Source of the DNA: Mnemiopsis leidyi
Taxonomy: Eukaryota
Assembly: GCA_048537945.1 (NCBI GenBank)
Contig: CM108484.1
Span: 9,123,785-9,187,784, forward strand
Direction: 5' to 3'
Length of the DNA: 64,000 nucleotides
Under the pieces are notes generated by a model. The model was not told the origin of the DNA and made no database searches. It saw nothing but the letters and a program-made list of their open reading frames with translations. Positions 29,816-64,000 of this stretch are shown in pieces (within the stretch, counting starts at the first letter, position 1; every line of letters begins with the position of its first letter). A program made the translations under genes and the position numbers.

Positions 29816-29887
29816 TTCCCACGCCGGGAATCGAACCCGGGTCTTGTGGGTGAAAGCCACAGATGCTAGCCCCTACACCACGTGGGA
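29816..29887 (-). tRNA. tRNA-Glu (anticodon TTC)
   Basis: reverse complement TCCCACGTGGTGTAGGGGCTAGCATCTGTGGCTTTCACCCACAAGACCCGGGTTCGATTCCCGGCGTGGGAA folds as a cloverleaf (7-bp acceptor, anticodon loop CTTTCAC, T-arm CCGGG-TTCGATT-CCCGG) and closely resembles canonical eukaryotic tRNA-Glu-TTC. Confidence 0.85.
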
Positions 29888-30434
29888 GATATTGAGTTAA
29901 AATTTAAAGATATATTATTCTTTACCGTGCTTACTGTATGGATCGTGTGTTGTAAAATTTAGATCACGAACTTTCATAGGATAGATCTTGCAAGTTAGAA
30001 ATTTGTAAACATCAAAGTTGAACGCTTGATAGCCAAGACAAATTGAGTAGATTATAAGTGACACCATAATATGAAGATCTTAAATCGCTAGAACGGCCTA
30101 TGGGCCGGAAACATGCATATCACGGACACCACTATTTTTTCAAATAATTTAATCTTCTCACCCAATACACTGGCTTTTACTTCAAAATTCTCGGATTCAA
30201 GTACTTTTTGCTATAGTATTCTCATTTTTCATGGCATAGCACTCGCCACCCCTAAAAAGTACTAACAGAAAACTTCTAATAGCACTTCATTTAAGTGTTT
30301 TTGTTATATTTCTAATAGAAATATAACTAAAACAAATATAGATGGAATATATTCAAGAGGGCGGTACTGACTTGCATTAATATAGCTTATATTTATCAGA
30401 TGACAAAAACCATGAGGGCAAACAAAAGTCAAGC

Positions 30435-30507
30435 AGCCTGATACGGGACTCGAACCCGTGACCCTCAGATTAAAAGTCTGATGCTCTACCGACTGAGCTA
30501 ACCAGGC
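30435..30507 (-). tRNA. tRNA-Lys (anticodon TTT)
   Basis: reverse complement GCCTGGTTAGCTCAGTCGGTAGAGCATCAGACTTTTAATCTGAGGGTCACGGGTTCGAGTCCCGTATCAGGCT matches canonical tRNA-Lys-TTT (anticodon loop CTTTTAA). Confidence 0.85.
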
Positions 30508-33490
30508 TTCTGTGCATTATCGTATTTGTCAATACTTAAACTTCAAGAACTCTAAGTTTTACTGTAAAATTCACACTGATGACGGCCCATGACTAGGAAT
30601 ATTTGATATGCTTCGAAAATATATGGTTTTAAAAAAATACACTTATTTTTGGATATTTGGATATTTCTACATCGCTCTAAAGCGTAAGCCCATTACTCGG
30701 TCCTTATTAAATTGAGGCCTACTCATGTTATTGGAATCGGACACAATTTGATACCCAAAAAACTTCAGACTAATGTCAAAAGGGCTGGTAGCGATTGACG
30801 GCTACCAGTACGGGTTGACCGCTGACGTCAGGTGGTTAAAATCACGTGTTGTTGGCGGCTCCATAAAACTCTACGTAAAGACTTGTTAATCGTTGTGTCC
30901 ATGTGAAAATGCAGAGACTAGGTAAATTCTACAGTGTTCTCGAATGTTCTTATACATCGGTAAGGGCAGCTTGTTGCGTCAATACACTGATTACACAGCA
31001 GAGTAGAGGCGAGTGGTGGTGGTCGGTTGTAGAATTTACTACTAAGCAATGAGACAAAGTATAGACTTACTTTACTACTAAGAAGTGAGACAGAGTATAG
31101 ACTTACTTAAATGTTGAAAATATGTAGTAAACCATACTTGGGATTTATAAACGACCGAGGAAAATATGGTTAGGGAAAATTATTGTGAAATTGCTCAGAA
31201 CAACCCAGATTTTTCTGGTCACTTTTTTATATTACCGGTTTCCAACCTTTCTATTTCAAAATTGAAACATTTTTGTTAGAGGATTTGTTTTCTTATTAGA
31301 GATACCTATCGAATATTTTATTTTTATCACTATAACTAGAAAAACAAGTAGAATTGTCGATCATTGCTGTTAAGAAAGAGAAATAATGACTCGTGGTTGC
31401 ATCAATTGAACTGGTTTTTACTACGAGTCATATCTTATTGTATAAAAAATGAAAAATTGACATATGTCGATCAACTTTGACCATAAGGATGTTGGGCTGG
31501 AATCATAAAATTCCCGAGTTAGGTATATCAGCAAACGCTTTTGTTAAATGTGACATTTGAGTACTTCATCGAGTTGAAATAACTTTTTAATTAAAATTTT
31601 TCTCTGTAACGGTTTAAATTAAACGCCTATGGTCAATTACTCACAGGTTTTATGATTGGTACGGGCTTTTTACTGTCCCGTATAAAAAGCTAGCATACAT
31701 ATCATACCATAATTGGATATCAATATTCAAGTACAACTACTTATAATACCTACCAGCCTTGCTGTGTTGAATACTCCCTCCTTGATATAAAATCCGCAGC
31801 GGGCAGTGTTTGAATGTTGCACGAAATTTTTCATATAATTAAATTTACCACACAAAAAACCTCAGCTCTTTTTAATATTGAATCGTGTTATCTAATTATC
31901 AGGGCCTAGTGTTATAACGCCTTAGCTTATTAACTGATTCTAGTACAATGCTCAGAGTCATGCAAAATAATTGATTTTTTCATGATAAGACAAATTAAGA
32001 GATAAAAAATTGCTGGAGATCGTACATTAGTTCGCAGAAAAGAGCAAATGCCGTCACTTCACAACCCTATTTCGAGCATTAGAGTAAACAAGAATTTCGC
32101 CCGTTATTCCCGACAGACGGGCGATATATTTCCACCCATGCATTATTTGAGAATGATGAAGAATAATACTACACTTTAAGTTTACATACTCGCCACTCAC
32201 TTGAAGAGATTTTAGCCATGCATTGATAACGCGCACCGTGTAAATAAAATTGACATGGCACGACGCACGTGCATTATAAAATTAAAATTGTGCGCGCTAA
32301 AACTCTTGCGCTTGGTTGTTAGCTCGATTTGCTATTGCTTCGTTTTGTCGACGATTTGATCTGTGTCGCAATATGTTGTAAGTATGCGAGTAAATTTTTG
32401 CCAAATGTCTGAATTGAACTTTAAATGGTGTAAAGCAAGCACTGTGCAGCCAGTAATCCATCTGACATTCATTCATTATCAATTCTCTAAAAGTTAAAAC
32501 CTTAAATATCCGGTTGCATTTGGTTACAACTGATAACCTCATAAAGCTTCAACTACTACAATGGGAAAATTCGCAAAAATCACTCCTATTCCTTAGTTTT
32601 ATAAGTCGGATTTCATCATTTACAAAGAGTAATTGAAGTAAACAAACAACTATATCGCAGATCGCTTATATCACAATGCACATTTGATTTTGCATCGCCC
32701 AAATCGATCAACTATCGTGATTTTCAGTAACTTTTTGTGTTTGAGAAAATATTTTACCCGACTATGTTTTCTAATTTTGTTGTCAGTTCCACCATACAGA
32801 CAAACAATTTGCCACGTCCCAGTTCGCAAGACCAATCAGCAATCAAATCCCCTTATGATCTCATTCACTACAGTGATGCGCGGCGCATTGAATTAAAAAC
32901 AATCTAACCCTGCGCAATCGCTGTTTTGATAAAGGAGCGGGACACGACGACCACGACGACGGACCACCATCCTGCTAACCCCACTATACCACCAAAATCT
33001 CTCGATTCCTAACCACCTTATGCCTTGTTAAGGCCGCTTCGCGGCCGGCTGGGTGGAAAAAATCTTGAATAAGTTCAGTTTCACACAATCATGGTAATAA
33101 TTTAGGCCCTGCAAACAAAATGTTCCATTTGAACATACAGGGGATTATTGTAAGATAATAATAAAATGAAACATTTAAAATCATAAGAAATTATTGGAGA
33201 AAATTTTCCACTTCTTTACGGAATGAAATTACAGGGTGTGATGCTATACCATTGTATCGGGTATCAATAGTCAATACCCAGTCATAAGATAATTCAGTGG
33301 TGAAGTGTTTTAGAGAGTAGCTTTAGGAACTAAAAAAATTGACTCAACCGATAATTTGCCCTGTACCAAAATAATTGAAGAACATCAAGAAAATTTCTTG
33401 GGAAATTGAGAAGGAATGGGTTATGGGATGCTAATTGCACTTTACTGTATGTTAGACCGCAGAGCAAAAATTTTATCCACGTGACAATAA

Positions 33491-40482: not shown

Positions 40483-41640
40483 TTAACATGGTTTGAAAGA
40501 GTTAGTCTTCAAGTTGATAACAAAAATGACAACAGCTCCAAGGCAGGAACCTAGTTGGGTACAGATTCCACAGAAGAGTAGAGCATTCTCGCCATATCCT
40601 TGTAACACACTCGCCACATTAACTTTGATGTAGGAGATGCATCCTGTCCATAAAACATTGAGGAGAATGATTAGGACGGATCCCATAGTTGTACCAACAA
40701 GCCAAGGACTTGGAGACAATGAGGCGGTATAGATGATGATTGAAGCAATGATCACACATACACTGCACAGGAAGCCAAGAATGGATGGCCTTCTGCATGC
40801 AACAAAAAAGGCAAGAAAACAACACAGTGGATTTGCAAGAAGTGCCAATTCGGTAGCTAAATGATACACTGTTGGGCCATAAGGAAGACAAGCATAAGAC
40901 AGGATGGCAGGGATAACACCATTGCCTAGGGCAGCAATAATAGCAATGACTAAGTACAGCTGAACAAATAACCATTTTGTTGCAGCAAGCTCTGTACGAT
41001 TTTCACCACAGAAAACTTCATAGACCTTTATGTTGGTTAACTTAATTTCATTTGTTTCAGCAGTAGATGAGGCATTTTCTTCGGGGGAAGGTGATTCCTC
41101 TTGCTCTACACTCTGCACCGGAGGACTGCTTGATCGGATATTAGCATACCTAGCATTCAGACTTACATCCAAGTTATTCACCAAGTAAAATGCAACTCCT
41201 GATGTAGCCATGAGCAAGGACATCACACCAAAGTACACATTTACACCAAATCTTGGCCCTTCAGTTGTAGAATTACTGGATGCATTGTAACAGGTATCAC
41301 CTCCCGTGCCTTGAGCTAAAGCTAAGAGACTAGGCATGACTCCACTCAGTCCTTCCCCGATGTAGAAAGGTATCATGTAGCCAGATGGGTATTTTGCCAT
41401 AAAGGGGAGAAAAACAACAGAAGAAGTGCAATCCAATATGGCAAAGATAAATGATAAAAATAGAAGTGGAAGGCTTGATTTTTTTGAATTCATTTCTACC
41501 TCTTTATCCCAAAATTGGGATAACAAAATTGCAGCCACAAAACCAAGTAAAAGGATGATGTAGGCTGTGTATCTTAGACTTGCCATGTCTTTTTTGTATT
41601 GTCGCATGATAGTAAATATGATTGGTCCAATGTTTGCTGC
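40483..41640 (-). CDS. SLC52A: Riboflavin transporter (SLC52/RFVT family) exon 2 (AANIGPIIFTIMRQYKK...NLKTNSFKPC*)
   Basis: FLPFMAKYP..FYIGEGLSGVMPSLLALAQG and CLPYGPTVYHLATELALLANPLCCFLA match human SLC52A ([55 protein letters not shown]); acceptor ccctcAG at 41641-41646. Confidence 0.85.
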   Translation of the reverse strand, partial: AANIGPIIFTIMRQYKKDMASLRYTAYIILLLGFVAAILLSQFWDKEVEMNSKKSSLPLLFLSFIFAILDCTSSVVFLPFMAKYPSGYMIPFYIGEGLSGVMPSLLALAQGTGGDTCYNASSNSTTEGPRFGVNVYFGVMSLLMATSGVAFYLVNNLDVSLNARYANIRSSSPPVQSVEQEESPSPEENASSTAETNEIKLTNIKVYEVFCGENRTELAATKWLFVQLYLVIAIIAALGNGVIPAILSYACLPYGPTVYHLATELALLANPLCCFLAFFVACRRPSILGFLCSVCVIIASIIIYTASLSPSPWLVGTTMGSVLIILLNVLWTGCISYIKVNVASVLQGYGENALLFCGICTQLGSCLGAVVIFVINLKTNSFKPC

Positions 41641-45998: not shown

Positions 45999-46636
45999 TC
46001 AATCCATCACCCCTTTCAACTCATCTAGTTGATACTTCATAAGTTTTTGTTCCAGTTCTGCTATAGTTCTGTCTCTCTCCCTGACTTTCCCCCTTTCCTT
46101 CTCCAACTCCTCCTCCAACTGTCTGATCCTCTCCTCAGGGGTGACCCTCTCCGCTGCTAGTACTGGCGTAGGTGTAGGTAAGCTCTCTCCTCCCGAATCT
46201 CCACTGGACCCAGGGATAGGTTCTAGAGAGTTGACGTCAATTCGAGTGGACTTAGCTAGGGCTTCTCTCAGTCTCACCTCACTGAACGAGAACTCGGCTC
46301 TATACTCTGGAGGAGGGGAGGTTGGGGGAGTTTTTGAAGAGGTTCCAGGTGGTTGGAGTTTGCCTGAAGTGACTTCAGGGGGGTCCGCACTGGATGTGTG
46401 TGTTGGAACTGGAGCTCTTTCAGAGACTGACTGAGGGTGACTGTCTGCTGATGCGACACCGGAACTGGAACAACTGGCTGCAGATACCGACTTTGAGGAA
46501 TGAAGGTGGTGGCTGCCTGAGGAGTGGCCGCTGTCTGACGTCACTAGTTCCTGACTGTTTGCAGAGGACACCCCACTCGAGGACTGATGGTCGTAACTCC
46601 GCAGACTCATCTCGTTCCGGAACATTTTACCGCCGC
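45999..46636 (-). CDS. NEK9: terminal exon: Ser-rich low-complexity region then coiled coil (..ERIRQLEEELEKERGKVRERDRTIAELEQKLMKYQLDELKGVMD*)
   Basis: tctttCAG acceptor; 211 codons + stop; a C-terminal coiled coil fits NEK9 domain order. Confidence 0.65.
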
Positions 46637-47293
46637 CTGAAAGACACGAAACTGTGTATTGTGTAAAGAAGATAGAATGTGCATTGTGCGGTATATTTGG
46701 TATCCGAGAGATAATGTACTGTGGTGCCTTCGTAATCAAGGAAGTGATAATAATGATATGTACATCAGAACAATCTTACTTATTGCCTGAGTGCCACAGT
46801 TAAATGACCGTTTTCTCCCAACGAATGGAAATACGCAATCTGTCAACCTGGCCACATTATGATAACTGATAAAAGATCTGCCAACATAGCATAGGAGCTA
46901 GGACAGGATAAACAGACTCTGAGCAGACGCGGATTTTAAAACTTCGAGAGAACTTTTCATCGAATTTTTGCTATTATTGAAGTGTTACCCGTTCCAACTA
47001 TCAAATTTCTGTATTCCGTTGAAAGACCGTTTTTCGACCACGGAGAATATCCTGCTTATTATCTTTTTTACCGCTTTGATTGCAGTATTAGTGTACTCTT
47101 ATAAAGGGACACTTGTAAACATTTCAGACCGTTTCCAGTTGAAACATATTTCAGAAAGACTTTAAATCGACAATCGTTTACTATTATTATTGTGTAAGAT
47201 GTAAATTGTAACTTGTACAATATGTAGCTTGCACTCGACTAGAAAATAAACTTAAACTTTAGTTGTTCGAAATTCACTGAATATGTGACTTAC

Positions 47294-47429
47294 CGAAATT
47301 GGGAGTAGGCGGTGGTTTGTCGCACATTTCCATCTCATTGTGCAGCCACGTGGGTGTTTTGGCAGAGTCTAATGAGTCCTGGCGAGAAACCTGGGTTTCA
47401 GCTGCTCCAATCAACTGTGCTGATATGAC
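47294..47429 (-). CDS. NEK9: exon (VISAQLIGAAETQVSRQDSLDSAKTPTWLHNEMEMCDKPPPTPNF-)
   Basis: ctttaCAG acceptor, g|GTAAGT donor. Confidence 0.6.
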
Positions 47430-47620
47430 CTGTAAAGTTAACCATTTTGAAGAAAAATCTAGCATGCTTGTGTTCTCATCTCTCATGTATTTAACAAGAG
47501 TTTGATCAAAAATTGTTCTTAGGGTTATAATTGCAGCCCAACTTAGAGTTCGACTAGAAAGTAGAACGTAGAAATACAGAAAAGATTTCAATAAAGAAGA
47601 ACAAAGAACAGTCTCTATAC

Positions 47621-47819: not shown

Positions 47820-47952
47820 CTGTTTCCTAGTTCGTTGTTGGTTCCGTCTCCCAGACGACCGTGGTTTCTATAGCCCCAGGAATAAACCTCGTTGTCTACC
47901 GTTGTAGCTACTGTAAACCTGTCCCCTGCTGACACAAGCGCTATTTTCTTTC
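47820..47952 (-). CDS. NEK9: RCC1-repeat exon (GKKIALVSAGDRFTVATTVDNEVYSWGYRNHGRLGDGTNNELGN-)
   Basis: cttctcacccAG acceptor, ag|GTATTT donor. Confidence 0.7.
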
Positions 47953-48087
47953 CTGGGTGAGAAGTTCTGTATTTTGAGGACCAAAGTTCAATATTTTGTG
48001 TCCTTGGCAGAACCGTTCATGATAAATAGGACAGGTGCGATCAGACGTAAACAAGGAAATAACAACATGGTTGTTGTTGAAACTCAC

Positions 48088-48232
48088 CGGCAAGTTTAGC
48101 CTTGACTATGGTAGGCTGGCTGTAAACTTTGTAGTGGCCTATACCCCGCTGTCCACACTTGTTTGAACCAAGAGTCCAGATTCTGTCGTAGGCGTCGATA
48201 ACAGCGGTGTGGTCAACACCACATGCTACTTC
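48088..48232 (-). CDS. NEK9: RCC1-repeat exon (EVACGVDHTAVIDAYDRIWTLGSNKCGQRGIGHYKVYSQPTIVKAKLA-)
   Basis: tttCAG acceptor shared with each unit of the adjacent 36-bp tandem repeat; donor g|GTGAGT. Confidence 0.7.
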
Positions 48233-48235
48233 CTG

Positions 48236-48490
48236 AAATACAGAAGGATCAACACCACATGCTACTTCCTGAAATACAGAAGGATCAACACCACATGCTA
48301 CTTCCTGAAATATAGGAGGATCAACACCACATGCTACTTCCTGAAATATAGGAGGATCAACACCACATAATACTTCCTGAAATATAGGAGGATCAACACC
48401 ACCTGCTACATCCTGAAATACAGGAGGATCAACACCACATGCTACTTCCTGAAATATAGGAGGATCAACACCACATGCTACTTCCTGATA
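48236..48490. repeat. 36-bp minisatellite x7, each unit duplicating the 3' splice site and first 22 nt of the adjacent NEK RCC1 exon (minus-strand unit caggaagtagcatgtggtgttgatccttctgtatttcag)
   Basis: direct reading; units are open in the exon frame on the minus strand (EVACGVDPSVFQ)n. Confidence 0.9.
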
Positions 48491-49874
48491 TTATACAGGA
48501 GGATTAAGAGCATGTTAGTGTTAGATGTTATTGAACATTTCATTTTTTCATTATCAAGTATGCATCTACAGCTTGCCTCGTCCAAGCTAGTGTCATCTAG
48601 CTGCATTAGATGTTATGAACAACTTGACGATTATACCATAATCATCATTGCCATACTAACGATTTCGGAGAAGCATTTCGTTTTTCTTGTTAAGCACGCC
48701 CAACTTTTAGATTCGGTTAAATCAGAATGTCGACGACGAAAGGAAACATAATTTAATGCTTCAGTCAAAAAAGGCTATATACTTATAGGCAAAAAAGTAC
48801 TTCAGAAACTTTAAATAATGTTTTTAAGATTGTGTTTGATATATAACAAGGATATGCTAGAAAAGGTTAAATACCCGTCCGAAGAGGACAATAGGCTATA
48901 ATAATGAAGAGTTTCCGACATCATGGCAAGAAAAAGTTGGGAGGAAAGTTGTTATTCTCAAAGCAATGTAAATTTGCCGAACTTGTTTCTAAAATTTAAG
49001 CAGTTGAAAGATCTTAACAGTCTGGATGAAAATTGAAATCACTACATTTCTTGTAGAGTCACCTCAGGTCACCACCACCTAGTACCAGCTAAACTTCCTT
49101 TGATACAGTTTACTCCTGGCTCAAGGAAAAAGTCTTGAAGAACTAACTTGGCCCCATTAGTGTTAATAAATGACAGTTTTGTTATCGAAGGGCACGTAAA
49201 GAGTAAAAAAATTACAGATACCTAGCTAAAGAATACATCCTAAGAAGATATTCCGTCTTAGGAAACCTTGGAACAAAGCTAGTGAAAAAAGCCAAAAGCC
49301 AACACTTAATAACAAGTACAGAATATAATCGTGTAACTTCGATCGCGGAGACTCTCCTGAAGAGCTAGTTTCTATGGACCATGACATAAAGTTAAAGTTG
49401 ACAGACCGTTCAACTAACAACTGTGATGTACCTCGACTCTGTGTTTTCATTCTGCGAAATACAGCTGCTAATTGCTAGAGGTATCACTAGAGCACATCGT
49501 TTTTCAAAAGAGGTGAAGGTCAATCTTCAGTTGGAAACATTCACGGTACCTATTTCACTAATGGGAGCGCTGTAAGGATCGGTCCGGTCGTATATTACTT
49601 TAACAGACGATAAATATTTTGGTCAGTGCTTACGTGGAAAGCACAAAACCTTTTATACTGCATATGTACTGAGAAAAAGAAAATTGAAACATACAGATTG
49701 TTATTAGCTTTAAATGTCATAGATTCAGAAACCAACAGAAAAGTTGACTGTCTTTTGAAATTTATTTAAAAAAACTGTTTTTATATGGGATCATTACTTG
49801 ATGTAGAATGTAGATATAGAATGGCCATGTTTAGAAGGCAAATTTAAGAAATTCTAATTTACGATAATACCAAC

Positions 49875-50014
49875 CCTAACTGCGACTGACGAGAGTCCAT
49901 AGACTGGTTTCAAAGTAAAAGTTTCGCCACACTTTGCTACTTTAGCCCCCTTCCTCCCGATTTTGTTAATACCCAACTTGTTATCTTGATTGTCTCCACA
50001 AGCCATCAATTTCC
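49875..50014 (-). CDS. NEK9: RCC1-repeat exon (GKLMACGDNQDNKLGINKIGRKGAKVAKCGETFTLKPVYGLSSVAVR)
   Basis: tttCAG acceptor, agg|GTTGGT donor; restores the phase between flanking exons. Confidence 0.65.
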
Positions 50015-50823: not shown

Positions 50824-50969
50824 CCCCGGTTGTGATGACAAACGAGCAGTGTCTTCCGCAAGCAACCTTAGCAAACTTGGTACCTCGGATCTCCAACTTC
50901 TGAGGAATGTAAAGTATGTCTTCACAGTCGTTGCCAAGGCACCCGTATTCTCCATTGCCCCATCCGTAT
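50824..50969 (-). CDS. NEK9: RCC1-repeat exon (LYGWGNGEYGCLGNDCEDILYIPQKLEIRGTKFAKVACGRHCSFVITTG-)
   Basis: tgtgCAG acceptor, GTAGGA donor. Confidence 0.75.
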
Positions 50970-51319
50970 CTGCACAGTGACAAGTTCAATTGTTACGACT
51001 GAGGTTTCCTAAATTTCCAGAAGGCATTGATTACAGCATTGGCCTTCTTATGTTGTAGGTTACGTAGTGTCTCGTTTCATAGGTGAAAGACCGTACATAC
51101 AAGGTTGACAAGTAGAATTTGGATCTTATTAAAGATCAATACTTAAATACACTAATAAGTTTCTCTATCATGGATAACTTTTAAACCAGATAACGAATCT
51201 AATGTTAAGTGCCAATTGAGTAACAATTAAGTCACAATCAAGTAACAATCAAGTAACAATTAAGTAACAATTAAGTAATTACAGTTAAGAAACAGTTAAG
51301 TAACAGTTAAGTAACATAC

Positions 51320-51495
51320 AAGTCGCCGTCCAGAGTAGTAGCCATGACGTGTGCATCTCCACAAGACACACTGGATATTGCGACGCCGTTGAAGAATGGC
51401 ACTGGAGTTGGGACTAGATAGTTATCCACCTCCTCCCCAAGTCCAAGACACCCGTCGTAGTTGCTACCGAACGCTACCTGCAGTTGTTGGATAAA
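51320..51495 (-). CDS. NEK9: RCC1-repeat exon (FIQQLQVAFGSNYDGCLGLGEEVDNYLVPTPVPFFNGVAISSVSCGDAHVMATTLDGD-)
   Basis: ctcccgCAG acceptor, GTATGT donor; ends in phase 2. Confidence 0.75.
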
Positions 51496-51586
51496 CTGCG
51501 GGAGGAACTAAGTATATCAAGTAGAATATTGGTTTCAGGAAATATTACTGTCAAGTGTAACTGTTAGTCGGGAAGTAAGTACGAAC

Positions 51587-51753
51587 CAGCTGATGCTGCT
51601 CGTCATACTCGTCCTCTACGACTGCCAGAGTGAAGTCCTCCCCGGCCACCACGTCCACCACCCCACTCCCCACCAGATGTTCTACTCGTTTAGGTGACCT
51701 GTAGCTGGCTTTGTCACCGTGCCCTAGCTGTCCGTACATTTCACCGGGCTGTC
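51587..51753 (-). CDS. NEK9: RCC1-repeat exon (GQPGEMYGQLGHGDKASYRSPKRVEHLVGSGVVDVVAGEDFTLAVVEDEYDEQHQL)
   Basis: GQLGHGD RCC1 signature; ccctcAG acceptor, GTTCGT donor. Confidence 0.75.
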
Positions 51754-51940
51754 CTGAGGGTGAAATCTTGTTGTTATTATATACAAGGGAATTTAGGATT
51801 CAAAGTCATATTCTGGTCACATTTACATGATTTAGTTGACACTAAACAAATCAGTTTTAATTTCAAACGAAAGTGCTCCATTCTTCTGGAGACATTTATA
51901 ACATTCTCCAATAAATGCTATCCAAGCAGGATGTGGGTAC

Positions 51941-52082
51941 CTGATGACCAGACATAGAGCTCCTTCTCTACAGTCACTACACAGAAATGTTTTGGTGCTA
52001 CACACACTCTTACAGCTCCCAGGTCCTTCTTGAACGTAGCCAGGGTCTGAGGTGAGGTTTTGCCTCCTCCCCAAATGTACAC
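51941..52082 (-). CDS. NEK9: RCC1-repeat exon (VYIWGGGKTSPQTLATFKKDLGAVRVCVAPKHFCVVTVEKELYVWSS-)
   Basis: RCC1 consensus (vy.wG ... v.cG..h..alt..g.vy.wG); tttCAG acceptor, GTACCC donor. Confidence 0.75.
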
Positions 52083-52520: not shown

Positions 52521-53253
52521 AGGGCGAGTCTTTGGAGTTTGGGCCCCAAGCTCTTTTGGAACCATTTAACAGTTGACTCTTCGCTTATTCTAATTTCTAA
52601 CCTCCCAATAACTCATTACTCATTATGTCGAGCGATGCTAACTAATATCAGCATGATAGTGATGTTGTCTGTAATTGATGCTAGCTGCTAGCGAATAAGG
52701 CTAGGTAGTGACCAAAACAACTAACGCAAGTAACCAGACATGATCGATGCTTGAATTACTTATTTTAAACAATAACGAAGAGAGCTTCAGTTTAGAATTA
52801 GCTTATAAACAATACGCGCGCGTGGTTTATACATATATACGCGCCAAAATGTTGCACTAAATGCGTTTATTGAAGAATTGAATAATAAAATTTAAATTCG
52901 GCGCTAGCGCGTTCCATACTTGGCGACGATCTATGAACTCTATCGATTGAAGAGTGTTTTTTCGGAAAAGCGACAACCTTCTGTCATGATAATACTTGAT
53001 ACGTATACCGTAATAATGAATCATAACAATAAACAAGAGTTTTTGCCATGAGGTTGAATAACACATCAGAAATTCACACATGGAATAATCAGTGATATTG
53101 AAAAAGAAGGATATTGAAGTGTAAACAATATCGATACGCTGATGAAACAGTATATCGATTTGACACAATCATGACAACAATTCGAAAGGACTGTGCCAGG
53201 AGGCAAGCCACCAGCTGCCGGCGACTAAGCTAACAGTTAACAAGCCTACTTAC

Positions 53254-53415
53254 TTCAGAGCTGAGGTTGGTGAGAACTGGCTGTCTTCCGGGTGACAGCT
53301 GCGAAAGACCTCGGACGTAATTTTGGGGACCTAACCGCTCTTCTAGAATCTTCTCGCACCCCTTCATGTAGGGGGTGTCTAGTATATCTTGCACGGTGGG
53401 CCGATTATCTGGATC
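53254..53415 (-). CDS. NEK9: NEK kinase-end exon (DPDNRPTVQDILDTPYMKGCEKILEERLGPQNYVRGLSQLSPGRQPVLTNLSSE)
   Basis: matches NEK NPRDRPSVNSILEKGFI; donor gaa|GTAAGT. Confidence 0.75.
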
Positions 53416-53589
53416 CTGAGTTAGAGAAAGTGTGTTAGATTGATGATGAAATTTGTTCTGATGTGGTTACAATGTACATTCTTACAGGTCTATTGATATA
53501 TGCGTGAGACTGCAGCTGATTGTTTTCAGCACTCTTTTGTTTTCAATCACAAGTCTAGCTAGCTATGTATCGCCTTTTAGTGAACATCA

Positions 53590-53850
53590 AATGTGCCAAC
53601 TTGTGTCGGTTTGTGTGCCAGTACGTTAGCATGTGTGTCAGTGTGTGTGTCAGAATATATGTCAGTATGTCAGTATGTGTGTCAGTATAAGTTTGTCAGA
53701 ATATATGTCAGTCTGTCAGTATCTGTGTCAGAATATATGTCAGTATGTCAGTATGTGTGTCAGTATAAGTTTGTCAGAATATATGTCAGTATGTCAGTAT
53801 TTGTGTCAGTATGTGTGTCAGAACATATGTCAGTGTGTCCTGGTATGTCA
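53590..53850. repeat. Tandem repeat (gtcagtatgtgtgtcagaatatatgtcag.. ~57-bp period) in NEK intron
   Basis: direct reading; the ORFs at 53593-53913 are repeat artefacts. Confidence 0.9.
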
Positions 53851-54127
53851 GTTTACAGTTATGGCCAGCTAGCTAGGCTAGTGTACCCGGAAACATACCG
53901 ATCATTAGATTAGCCCGAACTGTAATTACAGTTCTGGGCTACATCTGAACTTGTAAGAAGTTACTATGACAGTTACTATAGCACATATTATTCAGAAATA
54001 TGTACTGTGTACATCACTCAACTTGTAGGAGCGGTGGTTTCTCAGAAATGCATCCTGATTGATATCATGCACAAAAAAATTTAGAGGTCGCTAACAAATT
54101 ACTTAGAACAATATATAGACGTATTAC

Positions 54128-54193
54128 CTTTTGTAACATGCTTGTCAGTATGTTTCTCAAATCTTGGCTCCATGACTCGCTGACCGGCTTGAA
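54128..54193 (-). CDS. NEK9: NEK kinase exon, subdomain X-XI (FKPVSESWSQDLRNILTSMLQK)
   Basis: matches NEK PP.S..YS.DLR.LVSQLFKR; tttCAG acceptor, GTAATA donor. Confidence 0.8.
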
Positions 54194-55610
54194 CTGAAAT
54201 GTTAAGTTGAAAATATTTATGGTCGAACATTCAGCAGTGCTGCCTACTTTAATCAACTACCAGGAAATAGAAACATTTCTCCACGAGACTCGAGTTCGTG
54301 AAATTGACGAACAACATATCCCGGACCTCAGTACTATGTTTGGTATGTTGGCGGTCGCCAAATGTAAGTCTTACATGTCAGACATTTCGAAACCTAAAAC
54401 CAGCTAGACTCATTAAACCTTCGACATGGGCATTAAAAATTCGCCTTAAAATTTGGGAACAATTTTCAAAGGCAGTCAATGTCTGTTGTATTTTCTCTGC
54501 AGTGTGCGTGTCTACTGTCTAAAGCCGTTTATTATTTATACCACTTTTCACCTTCTAGATGCACTAAACGGTTGGACCTATCATTTAGACAGATCATCAA
54601 CTTCCCCAAGTGTTGTCCGTGATTCCCGTACACAGTTCGGACTGATTGATCGGGCGGCAAATAGATTTCCTGGAGGCTTTACCAGCCTTTCTTGTACCGC
54701 ACCAACGAGATAAAACATTGCACACCATCAACTAGAAGATCCTTAATCCATGCAATTATATACAAGGATAAGATATTATGCGTTTACGTGGTCAGAAATG
54801 ACAATATAATTAACAAGGTCATTGCAAAATTACAATTCAAAATTTATTGGCAGCAATTAGACGTGATTAAAATTGCTGCTAACGAGCCGAGACATACAAA
54901 TACTCGATTGTTTGATCCTTCGTACTCCCGCGGTCGATTTGTTACTTCTTCAGAGTGTGCTATGAAGTAAAATCGCGATGAAATAGTTGTGATTAGACGG
55001 TGATATCCAACGGCGGGTTGGATAGGTATTTTCCATCCAATAGAAGAGCTGCAGTGTTGATATTGTACTGTGCGATCGACCAATCAGAGCCGAGAGTTCA
55101 ATTTGTCCTGCTTCACCAAGATCAAGATAGCTAATAAATCATTCTACATGTTCACTTTGTGTTTTTCATTTCGGAACTTTCCGAGAAGGCGTTTAGATCA
55201 GAAGCGTGAAAAGCCAGGATATTGGTTAGACGGTACTTATGGAGTTAACCCGGGTAATTTTTCCCTGGTAATTTTTCCCAAACTCTTTTTGGTCTGATTC
55301 ATCTAAGACGTGGATGGCATAATTGATAATTTCGAAGTTTTCGTAAACACTTAGGCCGACAAGTTTCCATTATATATAAAAAGTTGACGGCATTTATTAA
55401 CATTAAGTTGCATAGCTCTTCTGATATATTAAGCGTTACAGAAGTAGCCAATTTGCTTTTTTGTCCGAGTTTTGTATATATAATTTTTTCTTGTGCATAA
55501 ATCTAAGGAATCCACCTTCCCAAACATATCATGATCATAATTTATTCATTTAAATTTTTCTATTCAAAACGACTACCATCCCTCAGCCTCTCATTCTCAG
55601 ATAGAAAAAT

Positions 55611-56585
55611 ATGGTAAATCCAGCCCTGCCAGACCCGACACTCATCTTGGCAGGTATTCTTACCCAAATAACATTCGAGAAGATAGTGGTGCGGACAAAA
55701 CTTGAGAGGCAGCTATCCCTCGACAAGAAATATTTTGAGATATCCTGGAGATTAGCAATCTTCAGTAAATATCCCGGTCTAGGCTGGCTACAGATAATTT
55801 TGTTGTCCAGTGTTGTTACCATCTTTTCCGTTCTGAGGACACCAAGAAAACATAGACTGGCTAGGGGAATCTTAACTTTATTTTTAACTTTCATTTTCAA
55901 TGTCAGTGTGGGAAGTGTTGGATTTACAGAGATCTATAACGTGGACGAACATCTAGAATATCGGATAACTCTGGAGTACTTCCAATACGCGACAACACCG
56001 ATATTCGCTTCTGCAGCGGTGGTAGTTGTGGGGAACTACCTGAAGATTCCCCGAGGAAGAACCACAGTTCGATTCGACCTGCGTACAGATAGGACAGAAG
56101 AAACGTCCCTCAGATCCCTCCTGAAGACTTACTCGCCGGGATCAGCGGTTCTTCTGACGGGGGTCTTTGCTCAACTTACTTTCGAGAAGTTATTCAGCAT
56201 TCTTATCACCTCCTACCCTACAGCGCCTGATTTCTGTGCACTGCGCGGCATCGGCAGCTGGATCCAACTTCTTTCCCTCTCTACTTTCCTTGTTTTCATC
56301 GTTCTGTGTGTGCGATCTGGCCCAAACAGGTTGTCTCAGGGGACAGTTACCTTTTTCTTCTCATTTATCTTAAACTTTAGTCTCGGTCACATCGGAGAGA
56401 TGGGAACATATTGTGGTAGTCAGTACAGCTCCAGAGTAAGGGACGTTTACAGGTATGGGACAATTCCTCTGGTCGGACTAACCGCTCTTGTTTGTTTTGC
56501 TGGTTTTTTGGTGACATTCGAGAAAGGCCGGAGTTCGGGAAACCCTCAGTGCCAACTTTCCAGAAGGGACACTGTTGCTGCATAA
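55611..56585 (+). CDS. Intronless ORF, 324 aa, predicted 8-TM membrane protein built from two homologous 4-TM halves; nested in a NEK intron on the opposite strand; no recognisable family
   Basis: long stop-free ORF in otherwise AT-rich intronic DNA; eight hydrophobic segments; halves align (LILAGILTQITFEKIV.. / AVLLTGVFAQLTFEKLF..; GILTLFLTFIFNVSVGSVGFTEIY / GTVTFFFSFILNFSLGHIGEMGTY). Confidence 0.4.
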   Translation: MVNPALPDPTLILAGILTQITFEKIVVRTKLERQLSLDKKYFEISWRLAIFSKYPGLGWLQIILLSSVVTIFSVLRTPRKHRLARGILTLFLTFIFNVSVGSVGFTEIYNVDEHLEYRITLEYFQYATTPIFASAAVVVVGNYLKIPRGRTTVRFDLRTDRTEETSLRSLLKTYSPGSAVLLTGVFAQLTFEKLFSILITSYPTAPDFCALRGIGSWIQLLSLSTFLVFIVLCVRSGPNRLSQGTVTFFFSFILNFSLGHIGEMGTYCGSQYSSRVRDVYRYGTIPLVGLTALVCFAGFLVTFEKGRSSGNPQCQLSRRDTVAA

Positions 56586-58197
56586 GAAATTACCTCGTGT
56601 TACTGAGACGTTTCGACCCTCACTAAATCTTCAACAAATTACGTTATGGGCACTCTAGCGTGGTTATTTTAGTGTCTTAGCTTTTTGTCAAAGCCTCATT
56701 GAGCAGACCTGCTAGAGCCAAGTACACTAAGTGTAGCTCTATATATAGTATAGTATAGTAGTACCTGCTCAGTCACCAGTGACTGTTATTTCTGGACATT
56801 GTTGTAAATTTTTTTACAAAATTTAAAGCAAAAACATAAAGCAAACCTATCGGGACAAAATCTCTGATGACCTGAAGCTGATCGACCCTTACACATATCA
56901 ATTACTCTCTATATAAAAAGATGGTTGGAAGCTTTGACAATATAACTTTTATCATATTTCTTTTATATTCCTAAGACAGTAACTGCTAGTCAGTGAGGAT
57001 TAATAATTTGTATTTTTTAGTGCGTGAAATTTACTTTATCTGGTTTGTGATTCTAAAGAGAGGAGAGTTTGACAAATCAATATGTTTCAGATAAAAATTT
57101 CGAACTTAAATAATCAGATCAAATAAGGTCCTGAAAACCCATAACCAAACTGATTCCAACAAAATATTTCCAGATTAAGCTGTCTAAACTCTAGAACATT
57201 ATTAAATCGAGAGGATAGCAGAAAACTTACCTATTTTTACGCAATGCCGTCATGAACTTGAGCTATTTTAAAAAGATAAGGTCCGCATTTGGAAAATCAC
57301 GCGTTATCTCAGTCCCGACAAGTCAACGACCTAATACTCAGTACCAGGTTACGAACTTTTGCTTTGTTTGGGACGATTTTCCGGGAGTAAAATTTGTTTA
57401 TCGAGGTGGGAGAACCTATCACAGATACTTTACTTGTGTAGACAAAGGAAAATGAGCGTATTCTGGAACAATTAGGTATGCGGTTTATATTAGGAGATAT
57501 AGGTTGGCTTACATGAGGTTTATGGTAGAAAAAGTTTGAGATATCTCAAACTTACACCTAAATAACTATAGAGCATAGCGTGTTTACTTCCCCTAAACTG
57601 AAGATTTAGGTTCTCATGAACGGACTTACCAACAATATCAAAAAGACTGGCACCTACCTTACTTTAAGTAAAACTGCTTATCGAAAACGAATTGAGATCT
57701 TCAAGTTAAAATTAAGTTTACCTTTTACTCTGTATACAAAATGACGTAGTAAAAGCTGAAAGTTAAAACTCGCCTAGTAAAGCTACTTCACGACAAAGTA
57801 CAAGTGGAAGTACAAAACACCTCTCTTGAACGACAAAGTACAAGTGGAAGTACAAAACACCTCTCTTGTACTTGGTGGGGTTCCCAGGACAAGACAAGGT
57901 GTTACTTCTTTTAACCAACCACACACAACACTGAACACAACACTACTACACGATATCTTAACGCGACACTACACTACTACACGACATCGTAACATGGCGT
58001 GTTCTGATGTTAGACAGAACATTACCGACATGACATTAGAACTGAAATTAATATTGAAGTATAGAAAATTGTATTTGTGCACTGTGTATCTTCCACAATG
58101 TACTTTGCACACCTTATTTAGTTAAATTGTACAATATACTTTAAAATACATTTTCAATTTCACAATATTCAGTGTATGATGTATAAAAGTATCTCAC

Positions 58198-58327
58198 CTC
58201 TTTAGTAACGATACTGTAAACAAGACGAAGCTGGTTTGTGGCGTCGAAAGTCTTGCGTAGCTCCAACATCTCATATAGAACACAGCCACACGACCAAACA
58301 TCACTCTTGTAACCGTACGGTAAACCC
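58198..58327 (-). CDS. NEK9: NEK kinase exon, subdomain IX (GLPYGYKSDVWSCGCVLYEMLELRKTFDATNQLRLVYSIVTKE)
   Basis: matches NEK Y..KSDIWSLGCVLYEL...F.A; acceptor ttttgCAG, donor GTGAGA. Confidence 0.8.
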
Positions 58328-58334
58328 CTGCAAA

Positions 58335-58510
58335 AGCAATGAGATCACTTGGTTACTTGGTTACTTGGTTACTTGGTTACTTGGTTACTCGTTTACTTGG
58401 TTACTTGATAACTCGTTTACTTTGTTACTTGTTTACTTGGTTACTCGGTTACTCGGTTACTCGGTCACTCGGTTACTTGGTTACTCGGTTACTTGGTTAC
58501 TCGGTTACTT
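58335..58510. repeat. Short-period tandem repeat (ggttact[ct]g)n immediately 5' (minus sense) of the NEK kinase exon
   Basis: direct reading; ORF 58236-58553 is an artefact. Confidence 0.9.
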
Positions 58511-59107
58511 GGATCTAACCGATAATCTCGAAAACCGTGTATTGATTTTCTAGGTTCTATTTAGAAATAAATGTCCGGACCGGTTTAAATGATAAAATGG
58601 CTAATCTTCACTGCGATTTTAGTTAAATTTGATCCTTATGATATTGCCCTACTTCCACTATTAAAGAGAGTCTACAAAAGAAACAGTTTAAAATGAGAAT
58701 ATTGAAAGCACTGGCCGGAAATCTACGTCATGTATTTGAATATACGTGTATGTGCCTCTGAACTTCTTCCACAAAGCAATTTCTCACACGTCAATCCCAT
58801 TGTTGTCCAGGGTCCTTCCATTGTCGACATTTATGAGATAATACAGAGGTAGTACATCAAAAAAGGAGCAAAACAATGTGAAAGTGTGGGACCTAGAAAC
58901 GCGCTAGTATCATAACAAGACGTTTTCGACTGAGTATCTGTCTCGACAATGGAACTCCTTTCCGCAAGACGGACATTGGTCCTCATTGTCTAATTCCATT
59001 GTCCTTTGTACAAAGATACCAGCTAGCTCCATCATTCCGCTCATTTTTACTTGTGCGCACCAGATCGCCAAACGTTAGTTGACGTTAGTTGGATTTGATT
59101 TCGTAAG

Positions 59108-63300: not shown

Positions 63301-64000
63301 AGACAAAATCCCTGATCGTGCAGGTGAAGAACGAGTTAAGAATTCTTGTTCCCGCAGGTTTGGGTGAAGTACGTGTAAATAATTCTTCTTCCCGCAGGTT
63401 TGGGTGAAGTACGTGTAAATAATTCTTGTTCCCGCAGGTTTGGGTGAAGTACGATTAAAGAATTCTTGTTCCCGCAGGTTTGGGTGAAGTACGAATAAAT
63501 AATTCTTGTTCCCGAAAGTTTGGTTGAAGTACGAATAAATAATTCTTGTTCCCGCAGGTTTGGGTGAAGTACGATTAAAGAATTCTTGTTCCCGCAGGTT
63601 TGGGTGAAGTACGAATAAATAATTCTTGTTCCCGCAGGTTTGGGTGAAGTACGAATAAATAATTCTTGTTCCCGCAGGTTTGGGTGAAGTACGATTAAAG
63701 AATTCTTGTTCCCGCAGGTTTGGGTGAAGTACGAATAAATAATTCTTGTTCCCGCAGGTTTGGGTGAAGTACGAATAAATAATTCTTGCTCCCGCAGGTT
63801 TGGGTGAAGTACGAGTAAATAATTCTTGTTCCCGCAGGTTTGGGTGAAGTACGAGTAAATAATTCTTGTTCCAGCAGGTTTGGGTGAAGAACGAGTTAAG
63901 AATTCTTGTTTCCGCAGGTTTGGGTGAAGTACGAGAAAATAATTCTTGTTCCAGCAGGTTTGGGTGAAGTACGAGTAAATAATTCTTGTTCCCGCAGTTT
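63301..64000. repeat. 40-bp minisatellite x~17 (gtttgggtgaagtacg[at][ag]taaataattcttgttcccgcag); each unit is a 3' splice site plus an exon start resembling the first 16 nt of an FTL part-c exon
   Basis: compare cag|gtttgggtgaagtac with real part-c exon starts cag|gtagaggtgtggcta, cag|gcacaggtgtttgtt, cag|gcgatggtttacgct; units hit an in-frame TAA after 6 codons. Confidence 0.85.

What the first reader, a model, noticed from the sequence alone, without database searches (positions are those of the whole stretch)
48088..48490. In-frame, stop-free 36-bp minisatellite that reiterates the acceptor and first 12 codons of a NEK RCC1 exon
On the minus strand the exon at 48088-48232 begins tttcag|GAAGTAGCATGTGGTGTTGA. 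Seven upstream units repeat the acceptor plus these codons, and all read openly in the exon frame as (EVACGVDPSVFQ)n until a TAA near 48487. Use of an upstream unit's acceptor would insert 12-aa repeats without changing phase. It is a ready-made alternative-acceptor ladder and potentially a length-polymorphic coding repeat.
Basis: seen in the sequence. Interest (0 to 1): 0.6.

Follow-up and report, generated by a model that had tools for sequence, protein, structure and literature searches.

The report
Splice-acceptor minisatellite in ctenophore Nek9 gene
In a comb-jelly Nek9-like kinase gene, a 36-base piece spanning the end of an intron and the start of an exon has been copied seven extra times in tandem, giving eight similar in-frame places to end the intron; it is a young, lineage-specific by-product of a repeat-rich genome, and its effect on the protein is untested.

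Summary
On the minus strand, seven 36-bp units (48484-48233) precede exon F (48232-48088) of a Nek9-like gene. TRF gives period 36, 7.7 copies, 95% match. Each unit is 20 nt of exon start plus 16 nt of intron end (branch-like TTGAT, pyrimidine tract, CAG). Units read EVACGVDPPIFQ in the exon frame with no stop. An eighth acceptor lies before unit 1, just after an in-frame TAA.

The host is a ctenophore gene: the closest protein is Bolinopsis microptera Nek9-like, 87% identical. Two relatives, a Tara Oceans contig and the B. microptera locus, have a 143-155 nt intron here and no repeat, so the array is derived and lineage-specific.

The real exons differ from the Tara relative almost only at third codon positions (47 of 52 differences). 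All six unit differences change the amino acid (Fisher p = 3e-4), so the units are not constrained coding sequence.

All eight acceptors look competent by the gene's own standards, but which are used cannot be decided without RNA data. Being stop-free and keeping every AG is expected for so young an array.

The closest known cases are donor-side splice-site minisatellites (F7, IFI6, CBS). This is a new member of a known kind, of modest interest.

The parts
48233..48484 (-). Seven tandem 36-bp units (U1-U7). Each is GAAGTAGCATGTGGTGTTGA (a copy of the exon start) plus TCCTCCTATATTTCAG (a copy of the intron end: pyrimidine tract and CAG acceptor).
   Evidence: Unit differences are A3T and T10G (U3), G7T and C8T (U4), A28G (U2, U6, U7) and C25T (U6, U7).
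48485..48507 (-). Native 3' end of the intron, which acts as a partial 'unit 0': CTCTTAATCCTCCTGTATAATATCAG. It holds the distal acceptor A0 (AG at 48486-48485) and the in-frame TAA at 48493-48491. It is 3 nt longer and richer in purines than the copy inside the units.
   Evidence: Self-similarity of the array reaches 48507. Pyrimidines at -5..-16 are 7/12 here against 10/12 in the units.
48512..48530 (-). Cluster of branch-point-like CTAAC motifs (ATCTAACACTAACAT). The candidate branch A residues lie 37 and 31 nt upstream of the exon start that A0 would give.
   Evidence: (6-nt micro-repeat). Their function as branch points is inferred, not shown.
48088..48232 (-). Exon F of the Nek9-like gene (145 nt, phase 0 to phase 1), encoding EVACGVDHTAVIDAYDRIWTLGSNKCGQRGIGHYKVYSQPTIVKAKLA(G), part of an RCC1 blade. 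The proximal acceptor A7 is tttcag|GAAGTA and the donor is G|GTGAGT (GT at 48087-48086).
   Evidence: The Tara orthologue has the same 145-nt exon with 1 amino-acid difference and 24 synonymous codon changes.
48233..49874 (-). Intron E/F. It is 1642 nt if the proximal acceptor is used and 1390 nt if A0 is used. The minisatellite occupies its last 252 nt.
   Evidence: No other copy of the intron sequence is found in the window, and it has no similarity to the relatives' 143-155 nt introns.
49875..50014 (-). Exon E (140 nt, ends in phase 0), encoding ..GKLMACGDNQDNKLGINKIGRKGAKVAKCGETFTLKPVYGLSSVAVR, with donor AGG|gttggt.
   Evidence: It is 94% identical at the protein level in both relatives.
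47820..47952 (-). Exon G (133 nt, phase 1 to phase 2), encoding (G)KKIALVSAGDRFTVATTVDNEVYSWGYRNHGRLGDGTNNELGN, with acceptor cacccag|GAAAG. The AG 14 nt upstream (exon start 47966) would give an in-frame TAG.
   Evidence: the joined F+G+H+I coding sequence is open to its stop; the Pfam score rises to 200.2 bits. Homology to B. microptera gtgcag|TAAGAAGATA.
50824..52082 (-). RCC1 exons A-D: A 52082-51941, B 51753-51587, C 51477-51320, D 50969-50824. Splice phases are consistent across all four.
   Evidence: They are 87% identical to B. microptera Nek9-like.
45999..47553 (-). Exon H (47553-47294; its 5' part is uncertain) and the last exon I (46636-45999). Exon I is a Ser/Pro-rich tail with a coiled-coil-like ending ..ERIRQLEEELEKERGKVRERDRTIAELEQKLMKYQLDELKGVMD*.
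   Evidence: Exon I is 64% identical to L002 29384-30052.
53233..58327 (-). C-terminal kinase-domain exons of the same gene: 58327-58198 (GLPYGYKSDVWSCGCVLYEML...), a piece within 54256-54068, and a piece within 53466-53233.
   Evidence: Pkinase E 2.3e-07 and 1.8e-04 for the fragments. These pieces are nearly identical to residues about 180-310 of P0152.

Best explanation
This is a young, lineage-specific minisatellite. It arose by tandem duplication, through replication slippage or unequal exchange, of a 36-bp segment that straddles the 3' splice junction of one intron in a ctenophore Nek9-like gene.

The duplicated segment runs from just after the native branch-like motif CTCTTAA|TCC to just after exon nucleotide 20, GTGTTGA|CC. 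Each unit junction therefore recreates a branch-like TTGATCC at the native distance from the AG. Every unit is a near-complete 3' splice module: branch-like motif, pyrimidine tract, CAG|G, and the purine-rich start of the exon.

The period is 36 (3 x 12) and the unit has no stop in the exon frame. Any of the eight acceptors would therefore give an in-frame mRNA, with 0 to 7 extra EVACGVDPPIFQ-like blocks inside the first strand of an RCC1 blade. That would evade nonsense-mediated decay and weaken selection against the array.

The ancestral protein comes from the proximal acceptor (exon start 48232). I infer that splicing is spread over more than one acceptor. The distal A0 is favoured by its consensus CTAAC branch sites. 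The proximal A7 is favoured by its position next to the body of the exon and a strong donor. I see this as non-adaptive noise, not a regulated device.

Shown here: the structure, the reading frame, the host gene, absence of the repeat in two relatives, lack of coding constraint on the units, and sequence competence of the acceptors. Inferred: the slippage origin, the branch-point roles, and actual acceptor usage.
For: - Repeat structure and statistics.
- Frame and splice phases.
- Host gene: Pfam WD40_RLD 200 bits; PDB RCC1-family hits (UVR8 6e-47, HERC1/2, RPGR, RCC1); 87% identity to B. microptera Nek9-like and 47% to a human NEK9 fragment.
- Derived state: the Tara contig L001 has exons E and F separated by a 143-nt intron with no repeat. 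B. microptera L002 has an intron of about 155 nt and no tandem repeat in 26-31 kb.
- No coding constraint: unit differences fall at codon positions [4,1,1] and all are non-synonymous. Exons E and F against the Tara relative give [2,3,47], 46 synonymous to 4 non-synonymous codons; Fisher p = 3e-4.
- Acceptor competence: A1-A7 have TTGAT at -17, 10/12 pyrimidines and AG-free zones of 24-30 nt. The gene's real acceptors have AG-free zones of 11-57 nt and yTnAy motifs at -13 to -29. A0 has CTAAC at -31 and -37 but only 7/12 pyrimidines.
- Flank-to-unit alignment CTCTTAATCCTCCTGTAT(AAT)ATCAG against GTGTTGATCCTCCTaTAT---TTCAG.
- Repeat-rich setting: about 15 tandem arrays cover about 7% of the window, and two more abut splice sites of this gene.
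- Precedent: in the donor-side minisatellites, IFI6 and CBS use the authentic site plus two neighbours, while F7 uses only one (PMC1557585). In human segmental-duplication genes, 66% of tandem-repeat changes at exon-intron borders also show the repeat-retaining transcript (PMC2812944).
Against: - No transcript evidence of any kind was available for this species. Acceptor usage rests on sequence features and analogy.
- In the best-studied analogue, F7, identical reiterated sites stay completely silent. A single-acceptor outcome is therefore quite possible.
- Exon F is under strong purifying selection, which argues that abundant insertion isoforms would be costly.
- The microhomology at the proposed breakpoints is imperfect (TTAA against TTGA).
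- A unit-length of 3n with an open frame has roughly a 1 in 4 chance under pure neutrality. It is only weak evidence that upstream acceptors are used.
Confidence: 0.42

Rival explanations
1. Silent intronic minisatellite. Only the proximal acceptor (exon start 48232) is used and the seven upstream copies are pseudo-sites that never reach mRNA. This would mirror human F7 intron 7, where identical reiterated donors stay unused. The array would be neutral intronic junk.
For: - F7: 5-9 identical 37-bp-spaced donors, of which only the exon-proximal one is used although the others are functional (PMC1557585).
- The units show no protein-level constraint.
- Exon F is highly conserved, with 1 amino-acid change against 24 synonymous changes versus the Tara relative, so insertions should be disfavoured.
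- The proximal acceptor has the better pyrimidine tract (10/12 against 7/12 for A0), sits next to the body of the exon, and has a strong GTGAGT donor 145 nt away.
Against: - A1-A6 are identical to A7 in every scored feature, so nothing in the sequence singles out A7.
- The only consensus branch sites (CTAAC) lie upstream of A0, and scanning from the branch point would pick the first AG.
- IFI6 and CBS do use neighbouring pseudo-sites.
- Most introns of this gene are short (109-809 nt). That fits intron-definition pairing, which would favour the first competent acceptor.
Confidence: 0.32
2. Coding minisatellite. The distal acceptor A0 (or A1) is the one normally used, so the whole array is exonic (an exon of 397 nt). 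The protein would carry an 84-residue (EVACGVDPPIFQ)7 insertion in the loop and first strand of an RCC1 blade, probably varying in length between individuals.
For: - A0 is the first AG after the only consensus branch motifs, and it follows a 79-nt AG-free zone.
- 3' splice sites are widely held to be found by scanning from the branch point (PMC1557585 discussion; PMC1636351).
- The array is 3n and open in frame.
- The residues before the last EVACG (..IFQ) resemble the native ..AVR in hydrophobic pattern, so the blade strand could still form. This is an inference from the UVR8 alignment.
- B. microptera appears to do without exons F and G altogether, so this part of the propeller is evolutionarily dispensable in a relative.
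Against: - All six unit differences are non-synonymous, including Cys to Gly and Ala to Leu, so there is no purifying selection.
- Both relatives lack any insertion at this point.
- No predicted protein in a library representing about 15 billion proteins (1.84 billion cluster representatives searched) carries such a repeat.
- A0 has the weakest pyrimidine tract of the eight acceptors.
- With the insertion, Pfam splits the RCC1-like domain into two stretches.
Confidence: 0.2
3. Assembly artefact. The copy number, or the whole array, was produced by mis-assembly of a short duplication.
For: Tandem repeats are a known source of assembly error. No independent read data could be examined.
Against: - The units carry distinct, ordered variants (U2, U3, U4 and U6/U7 differ), with no indels and a clean phase into the exon.
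- The window holds many other well-formed minisatellites.
Confidence: 0.03

Closest known systems
Human F7 intron 7 37-bp VNTR (Borensztajn et al. 2006, PMC1557585)
   Same: A minisatellite with one terminal unit spanning an exon-intron boundary, so that a splice site is reiterated identically (5-9 copies in F7) at a spacing of about 36-37 bp. The extra sites are sequence-competent. It serves as a natural test bed for splice-site choice.
   Different: F7 reiterates the donor (5' splice site), not the acceptor. Its period of 37 is not a multiple of 3, so most pseudo-sites would shift the frame. Experiments show that only the authentic site is used. Here the acceptor, pyrimidine tract and a branch-like motif are reiterated, all sites are in frame, and usage is unknown.
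Human IFI6 (6-16) 12-nt minisatellite and the CBS intron 13 VNTR (Turri 1995 and Yang 2000, as cited in PMC1557585)
   Same: Reiterated splice sites at an exon border. In-frame use of neighbouring copies gives isoforms that differ by whole repeat units (a 12-nt unit in IFI6; that this adds 4 amino acids is from my own memory of Turri 1995).
   Different: Both are donor-side and vertebrate, with transcripts characterised. Only the authentic site and the two nearest copies are used. I did not read the primary papers; the statements come from the summary in PMC1557585.
Internal tandem repeats at exon-intron boundaries of human segmental-duplication genes (De Grassi & Ciccarelli 2009, PMC2812944)
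   Same: Variable tandem repeats lying on exon-intron borders that alter splicing. [quoted passage not shown] They are recent and lineage-specific.
   Different: Those cases were defined by comparing paralogues with transcript support and mostly involve longer units and new introns. This case is a single-copy, conserved kinase gene in a ctenophore, with no transcript data.
NAGNAG and other short-distance tandem acceptors
   Same: Several in-frame acceptors in tandem give insertion and deletion isoforms without a frameshift.
   Different: NAGNAG sites are 3 nt apart and share one branch point and one pyrimidine tract. Here the sites are 36 nt apart and each has its own tract and branch-like motif.

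Membership tests
Minisatellite / VNTR | Head-to-tail tandem array with a unit of about 10-100 bp, several copies and high identity | tested here: met
   Period 36, 7.7 copies, 95% matches, no indels. Seven in-register units.
Minisatellite / VNTR | Copy number varies between individuals | not testable with these tools
   Only one haplotype is available. Scans of JGI metagenome contigs for the unit junction and for exon F found nothing.
Splice-site-reiterating minisatellite (F7 / IFI6 / CBS type) | A terminal unit of the array spans a real exon-intron junction | tested here: met
   The last 16 nt of the intron plus the first 20 nt of exon F make up the unit. The exon boundary is conserved in the Tara orthologue (cacag|GAGGTTGC).
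Splice-site-reiterating minisatellite (F7 / IFI6 / CBS type) | Every unit carries a consensus-quality copy of the splice site | tested here: met
   All 7 units keep TTTCAG|G, 10/12 pyrimidines and TTGAT at -17. These values fall within the range of the gene's own acceptors.
Splice-site-reiterating minisatellite (F7 / IFI6 / CBS type) | The reiterated site is a donor, as in all three described human cases | tested here: not met
   Here the acceptor is reiterated, so this is a mirror-image case rather than the same type.
Splice-site-reiterating minisatellite (F7 / IFI6 / CBS type) | Usage or silence of the extra sites shown in transcripts | not testable with these tools
   No transcript-derived protein of this species turned up in the protein collections.
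Coding (protein) tandem repeat | In frame and free of stops across the array | tested here: met
   This is expected by chance for a young array: only 3 of 108 single substitutions make a stop.
Coding (protein) tandem repeat | Purifying selection on the units (an excess of synonymous change) | tested here: not met
   0 synonymous of 6 differences. Codon-position pattern [4,1,1] against [2,3,47] in the flanking exons, p = 3e-4.
Coding (protein) tandem repeat | Presence of the repeat in orthologous or other known proteins | tested here: not met
   Absent from the Tara and B. microptera loci. The only matches to the repeat part in 1.84 billion representative proteins are unrelated proteins with a 12-aa period.
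NEK9-type kinase (host gene) | N-terminal protein kinase domain of the NEK type | tested here: met
   Kinase-domain fragments at 58327-58198, 54256- and 53466- (Pkinase) are nearly identical to P0152, which NCBI names 'serine/threonine-protein kinase Nek9-like'. The N-terminal part of the kinase domain was not mapped in the window.
NEK9-type kinase (host gene) | RCC1-like beta-propeller domain after the kinase | tested here: met
   WD40_RLD 200.2 bits (cut-off 150) and four RCC1 repeat stretches. PDB hits to UVR8, HERC2 and RCC1. 47% identity to a human NEK9 fragment.
NEK9-type kinase (host gene) | C-terminal coiled coil | tested here: inconclusive
   The last exon ends with a heptad-like, charged ..ERIRQLEEELEKERGKVRERDRTIAELEQKL.. 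segment. No coiled-coil predictor was run.

The most novel reading that the evidence does not exclude
The array works as a natural in-frame acceptor ladder. Several of the eight acceptors are used in vivo, giving a graded series of Nek9 isoforms with 0-7 twelve-residue inserts in an RCC1 blade. Allele length would set the range of the series. This would be the acceptor-side counterpart of the F7 and IFI6 donor minisatellites. It would also be a ready-made natural experiment on 3' splice-site choice, branch-point scanning against exon definition, in an early-branching animal.
Probability: 0.4. Interest if true: 0.5.

Novelty: new member of a known kind. Interest (0 to 1): 0.35.

Why it matters
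If several acceptors are used, this locus would be a rare natural substrate with eight nearly identical 3' splice modules 36 nt apart, all of them in frame. Isoform ratios would then report directly how the spliceosome of a ctenophore picks among equal sites, without interference from nonsense-mediated decay. It would also show how a junction-spanning duplication can add length-variable peptide to a conserved beta-propeller. If only one acceptor is used, it is simply one more intronic minisatellite in a repeat-rich genome. Either way it is a hazard for gene prediction at this exon.

Tried and rejected
I ran it instead with the read-through translation 48484-48089. The list was swamped by multi-repeat RCC1 proteins matching only the exon part. 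It gave no orthologues. Its one use was to show that no library protein carries the repeat; the two hits to the repeat part (P0004, P0122) are unrelated proteins with a 12-aa period.

2. The first homology search, with exons E-G, returned only a 109-aa metagenome ORF. That ORF turned out to be useful, because its 601-nt contig holds both exons E and F.

4. My first model of exon G used the AG at 47968-47967 (exon start 47966). That gives an in-frame TAG, so the queries carry 8 wrong residues (ELLTQERK). I corrected the exon start to 47952. No conclusion changes.

5. Literature searches for duplicated or minisatellite-borne acceptors found no described acceptor-side case. The catalogue of aberrant 3' splice sites has no entry on duplications.

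6. MAFFT could not align the relatives' intron ends with the unit. The resemblance of B. microptera gtCTAATCtttaTTTACG to the unit is by eye only, and I do not rely on it.

7. A dispersed-repeat or transposon origin is rejected. The unit and the rest of the intron have no other copy in the window.

8. Recursive splicing is rejected, because no GT follows the reiterated AG.

9. Structure prediction of the insertion isoform was not possible, because spliced sequences are not accepted by that tool.

Full report
**Observation.** On the minus strand the sequence reads ...ctcttaatcctcctgtataatatcag, then seven units of 36 bp, then the exon. Tandem Repeats Finder gives 48213-48488, period 36, 7.7 copies, 95% matches, no indels, score 489. 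The consensus unit GAAGTAGCATGTGGTGTTGATCCTCCTATATTTCAG matches seven times with at most 3 mismatches, against 0.00 expected in shuffles, and nowhere else in the 64 kb.

The units lie at 48484-48233. The next 36 nt (48232-48197) share only the first 20 nt, GAAGTAGCATGTGGTGTTGA, and then continue as CCACACCGCTGTTATC. A unit is therefore 20 nt of exon start plus 16 nt of intron end, not '12 codons of the exon'.

In the exon frame the array reads EVACGVDPPIFQ, EVACGVDPPVFQ, DVAGGVDPPIFQ, EVLCGVDPPIFQ, EVACGVDPPIFQ, EVACGVDPSVFQ, EVACGVDPSVFQ, and then EVACGVDHTAVI... The nearest upstream in-frame stop is TAA at 48493-48491. Between that TAA and unit 1 lies one more acceptor (tatcag|G). There are thus eight in-frame acceptors, giving exons of 145 to 397 nt.

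**The host gene.** I built the gene model by hand from open frames, GT-AG sites and splice phases.
- Kinase exons include 58327-58198.
- RCC1 exons are A 52082-51941, B 51753-51587, C 51477-51320, D 50969-50824, E 50014-49875, F 48232-48088 and G 47952-47820.
- Exon H is 47553-47294 (its 5' part is uncertain) and the last exon I is 46636-45999.

Phases agree throughout, and the joined F+G+H+I sequence is open to its stop. Exon E ends in phase 0 (..SSVAVR|gttggt), so exon F starts on a full codon and every 36-nt step keeps the frame.

The joined A-G protein scores 200.2 bits on Pfam WD40_RLD (cut-off 150), with four RCC1 repeat stretches. It matches solved RCC1-type propellers: UVR8 6e-47, HERC1/2, RPGR and RCC1. 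The best database relative is 'serine/threonine-protein kinase Nek9-like [Bolinopsis microptera]' at 87% identity. A human NEK9 fragment is 47% identical. B. microptera is a lobate ctenophore. The window therefore comes from a related ctenophore, and 'NEK RCC1 exon' is correct.

By alignment to UVR8's IKQIACG..H motif, the junction R|EVACG falls inside the first strand of a blade (the placement is my inference).

**Relatives lack the repeat.** The only hit of the first protein search was an ORF on a 601-nt Tara Oceans contig, L001. That contig carries exon E (59-198), a 143-nt intron, and a complete 145-nt exon F (342-486). Its acceptor is cacag|GAGGTTGCATGCGG and its donor is CAG|GTTAGT. It has no 36-bp repeat.

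The B. microptera locus L002 (GCA_026151205.1, CM047404.1) has exons D and E intact and an intron of about 155 nt. It has no tandem repeat anywhere in 26-31 kb.

Exon E is 79-84% identical at the nucleotide level among the three, and almost all differences are at third positions. These are three distinct species. The short, repeat-free intron is the shared and most likely ancestral state. The 1642-nt intron of the window has no similarity to either relative's intron and no second copy in the window. The array, and the tenfold growth of the intron, are specific to the window's lineage.

**Do the units behave as coding sequence?** Exons E and F differ from the Tara relative at 52 nucleotides, 47 of them at third positions. 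That is 46 synonymous against 4 non-synonymous codon changes.

The seven units differ from their consensus at six sites: A3T, T10G, G7T, C8T, C25T and A28G. All six change the amino acid (E to D, C to G, A to L, P to S, I to V), and only one is at a third position. Fisher's exact test on third against other positions gives p = 3e-4. The units are therefore not under the constraint that governs the exon they copy. They are either intronic or unconstrained peptide.

Staying open in frame is no argument for coding. Only 3 of 108 single substitutions in a unit create a stop and 6 of 108 destroy the AG. With six changes the array stays stop-free 84% of the time and keeps every AG 71% of the time (computed). 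The 40-bp array at 63323-63997 is open in all three minus-strand frames.

A period of 3n with an open frame has a chance of about 1 in 4. It would be guaranteed only if upstream acceptors were used and selected for frame. That gives a likelihood ratio of about 4, which is weak support for some usage (inference).

**Are the acceptors competent?** For A1-A7 the 24 nt before the AG read ggtgttgatcctcctatatttcag. They have 10/12 pyrimidines at -5..-16, a yUnAy match (TTGAT) at -17, and an AG-free zone of 24-30 nt.

The gene's own acceptors have AG-free zones of 11-57 nt. Their only yUnAy motifs often sit at -13 to -29; examples are TTGAT at -20 in intron D/E and CTCAT at -13 before the kinase exon. 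By the gene's own standards every unit is a plausible 3' splice site.

A0 differs from the rest. It has two consensus CTAAC motifs at -31 and -37, a TTAAT at -20 and a 79-nt AG-free zone, but only 7/12 pyrimidines.

Aligning the flank with a unit gives CTCTTAATCCTCCTGTAT(AAT)ATCAG against GTGTTGATCCTCCTaTAT---TTCAG. The join between exon-derived GTTGA and intron-derived TCC recreates the native TTAATCC motif. That same imperfect microhomology (TTrA / CC) lies at both ends of the duplicated segment, which fits an origin by slippage (inference).

**Which acceptor is used?** This cannot be settled here. The considerations pull in different directions.
- Scanning from the branch point to the first AG, the accepted model for 3' sites (PMC1557585 discussion; PMC1636351), favours A0 if the CTAAC sites are used. 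It favours each A_k if that unit's own TTGAT is used.
- Exon definition, the conserved protein and the F7 precedent favour the proximal site.
- IFI6 and CBS show that neighbouring reiterated sites can be used.
- Tandem repeats at exon-intron borders in human genes often show both transcript forms (PMC2812944).

My estimates are 0.42 for more than one acceptor used, 0.32 for proximal only, 0.20 for distal only (the array fully exonic), and 0.03 for an artefact.

No transcript-derived protein of this species exists in the collections searched. The unit junction is absent from JGI metagenome contigs.

**Comparison with known cases.** The closest described systems are minisatellites that reiterate a donor. 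These are F7 intron 7 (37 bp; only the authentic site is used), IFI6 6-16 (12 nt; the authentic site plus two) and CBS intron 13, as summarised in PMC1557585. The broader class is internal tandem repeats at exon-intron boundaries (PMC2812944). This locus shares the architecture but sits on the acceptor side, is entirely in frame, and is in a ctenophore. My searches found no described acceptor-side minisatellite. That is absence from an open-access library, not proof that none exists. I rate it a new member of a known kind.

**Context.** About 15 tandem arrays cover about 4.65 kb, or 7%, of the window. With some twenty splice junctions in the window, one junction falling inside an array is not surprising. 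Two other arrays touch splice sites of the same gene.

**Verdict.** It is a lineage-specific, non-conserved and probably non-adaptive by-product of minisatellite activity. Interest 0.35.

Noticed in passing
L002 28121-28575 (B. microptera CM047404.1), compared with window 48232-47820: In Bolinopsis microptera the homologues of exons F and G are decayed. The acceptor AG has become CG, there are at least 8 single-base indels and in-frame stops, and the donor is lost. Exons D and E next to them are intact. The NCBI model (560 aa) splices exon E straight to '..VISALNDRRI*' (L002 29006-29038), and the C-terminal exon is annotated as a separate 219-aa gene. The last RCC1 blades of this Nek9-like gene therefore seem to have been lost in one lobate lineage while staying under strong constraint in another.
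   Followed up: partly
window 58347-58512 (minus strand), next to the exon starting at 58327: An 8-bp array (GTAACCAA / GTAACCGA, 20.8 copies) ends about 20 nt upstream of the acceptor of a kinase-domain exon (..gtaaccaagtgatctcattgcttttgcag|GGGTTT). Every unit contains a branch-like TAAC and an AG.
   Followed up: partly
window 51205-51316 (minus strand), just past the donor of RCC1 exon C at 51320: An 11-bp array (TTGTTACTTAA, 9.9 copies) begins a few bases inside the intron that follows the exon C donor (GACTT|gtatgttacttaactgttacttaac..). Each unit has a weak GTTACT donor-like motif. This is a third tandem array abutting a splice site in the same gene.
   Followed up: no
window 47952-47968 (minus strand): Exon G has two AGs 14 nt apart (aaaatacag AACTTCTCACCCAG|GAAAG). 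Only the downstream one keeps the frame; the upstream one gives ELLTQERK followed by a stop. The first AG seems to be bypassed here, which is relevant to how this spliceosome chooses among nearby AGs.
   Followed up: partly
window 48403-48412 (unit U3): The T10G change in U3 creates GTAGCAG|GTGGTG. That is an extra AG 10 nt into the unit (out of frame) next to a donor-like GTGGTG.
   Followed up: no
window 47429 (minus strand): The acceptor ttacag|GTCATATCAGCA inside my exon H is the one B. microptera's model uses directly after exon E. In the window, joining E to this site would also be in frame and open (VISAQLIGAAETQ..). An isoform skipping F, G and the first part of H is therefore possible, and the 5' part of exon H is uncertain.
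   Followed up: no
window 63323-63997, 1267-2351 and 27814-28843: Three large minisatellites: 40 bp x 16.9, 31 bp x 35 and 62 bp x 16.6. The 40-bp array is open in all three minus-strand frames for 660-795 nt and runs off the end of the window.
   Followed up: no
window 40483-41607 (minus strand): A single-exon 374-aa ORF, a strong match to the SLC52 riboflavin transporter family (Pfam PF06237, 334 bits). It lies downstream of the Nek9-like gene on the same strand.
   Followed up: partly
window 29816-29887 and 30433-30508 (minus strand): Two tRNA genes, tRNA-Glu(TTC) and tRNA-Lys(TTT), about 550 bp apart.
   Followed up: partly
window 55611-56585 (plus strand): A 324-aa ORF antisense to the Nek9-like gene, inside one of its kinase-region introns. 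It is hydrophobic, looks internally duplicated, and has no Pfam match.
   Followed up: partly
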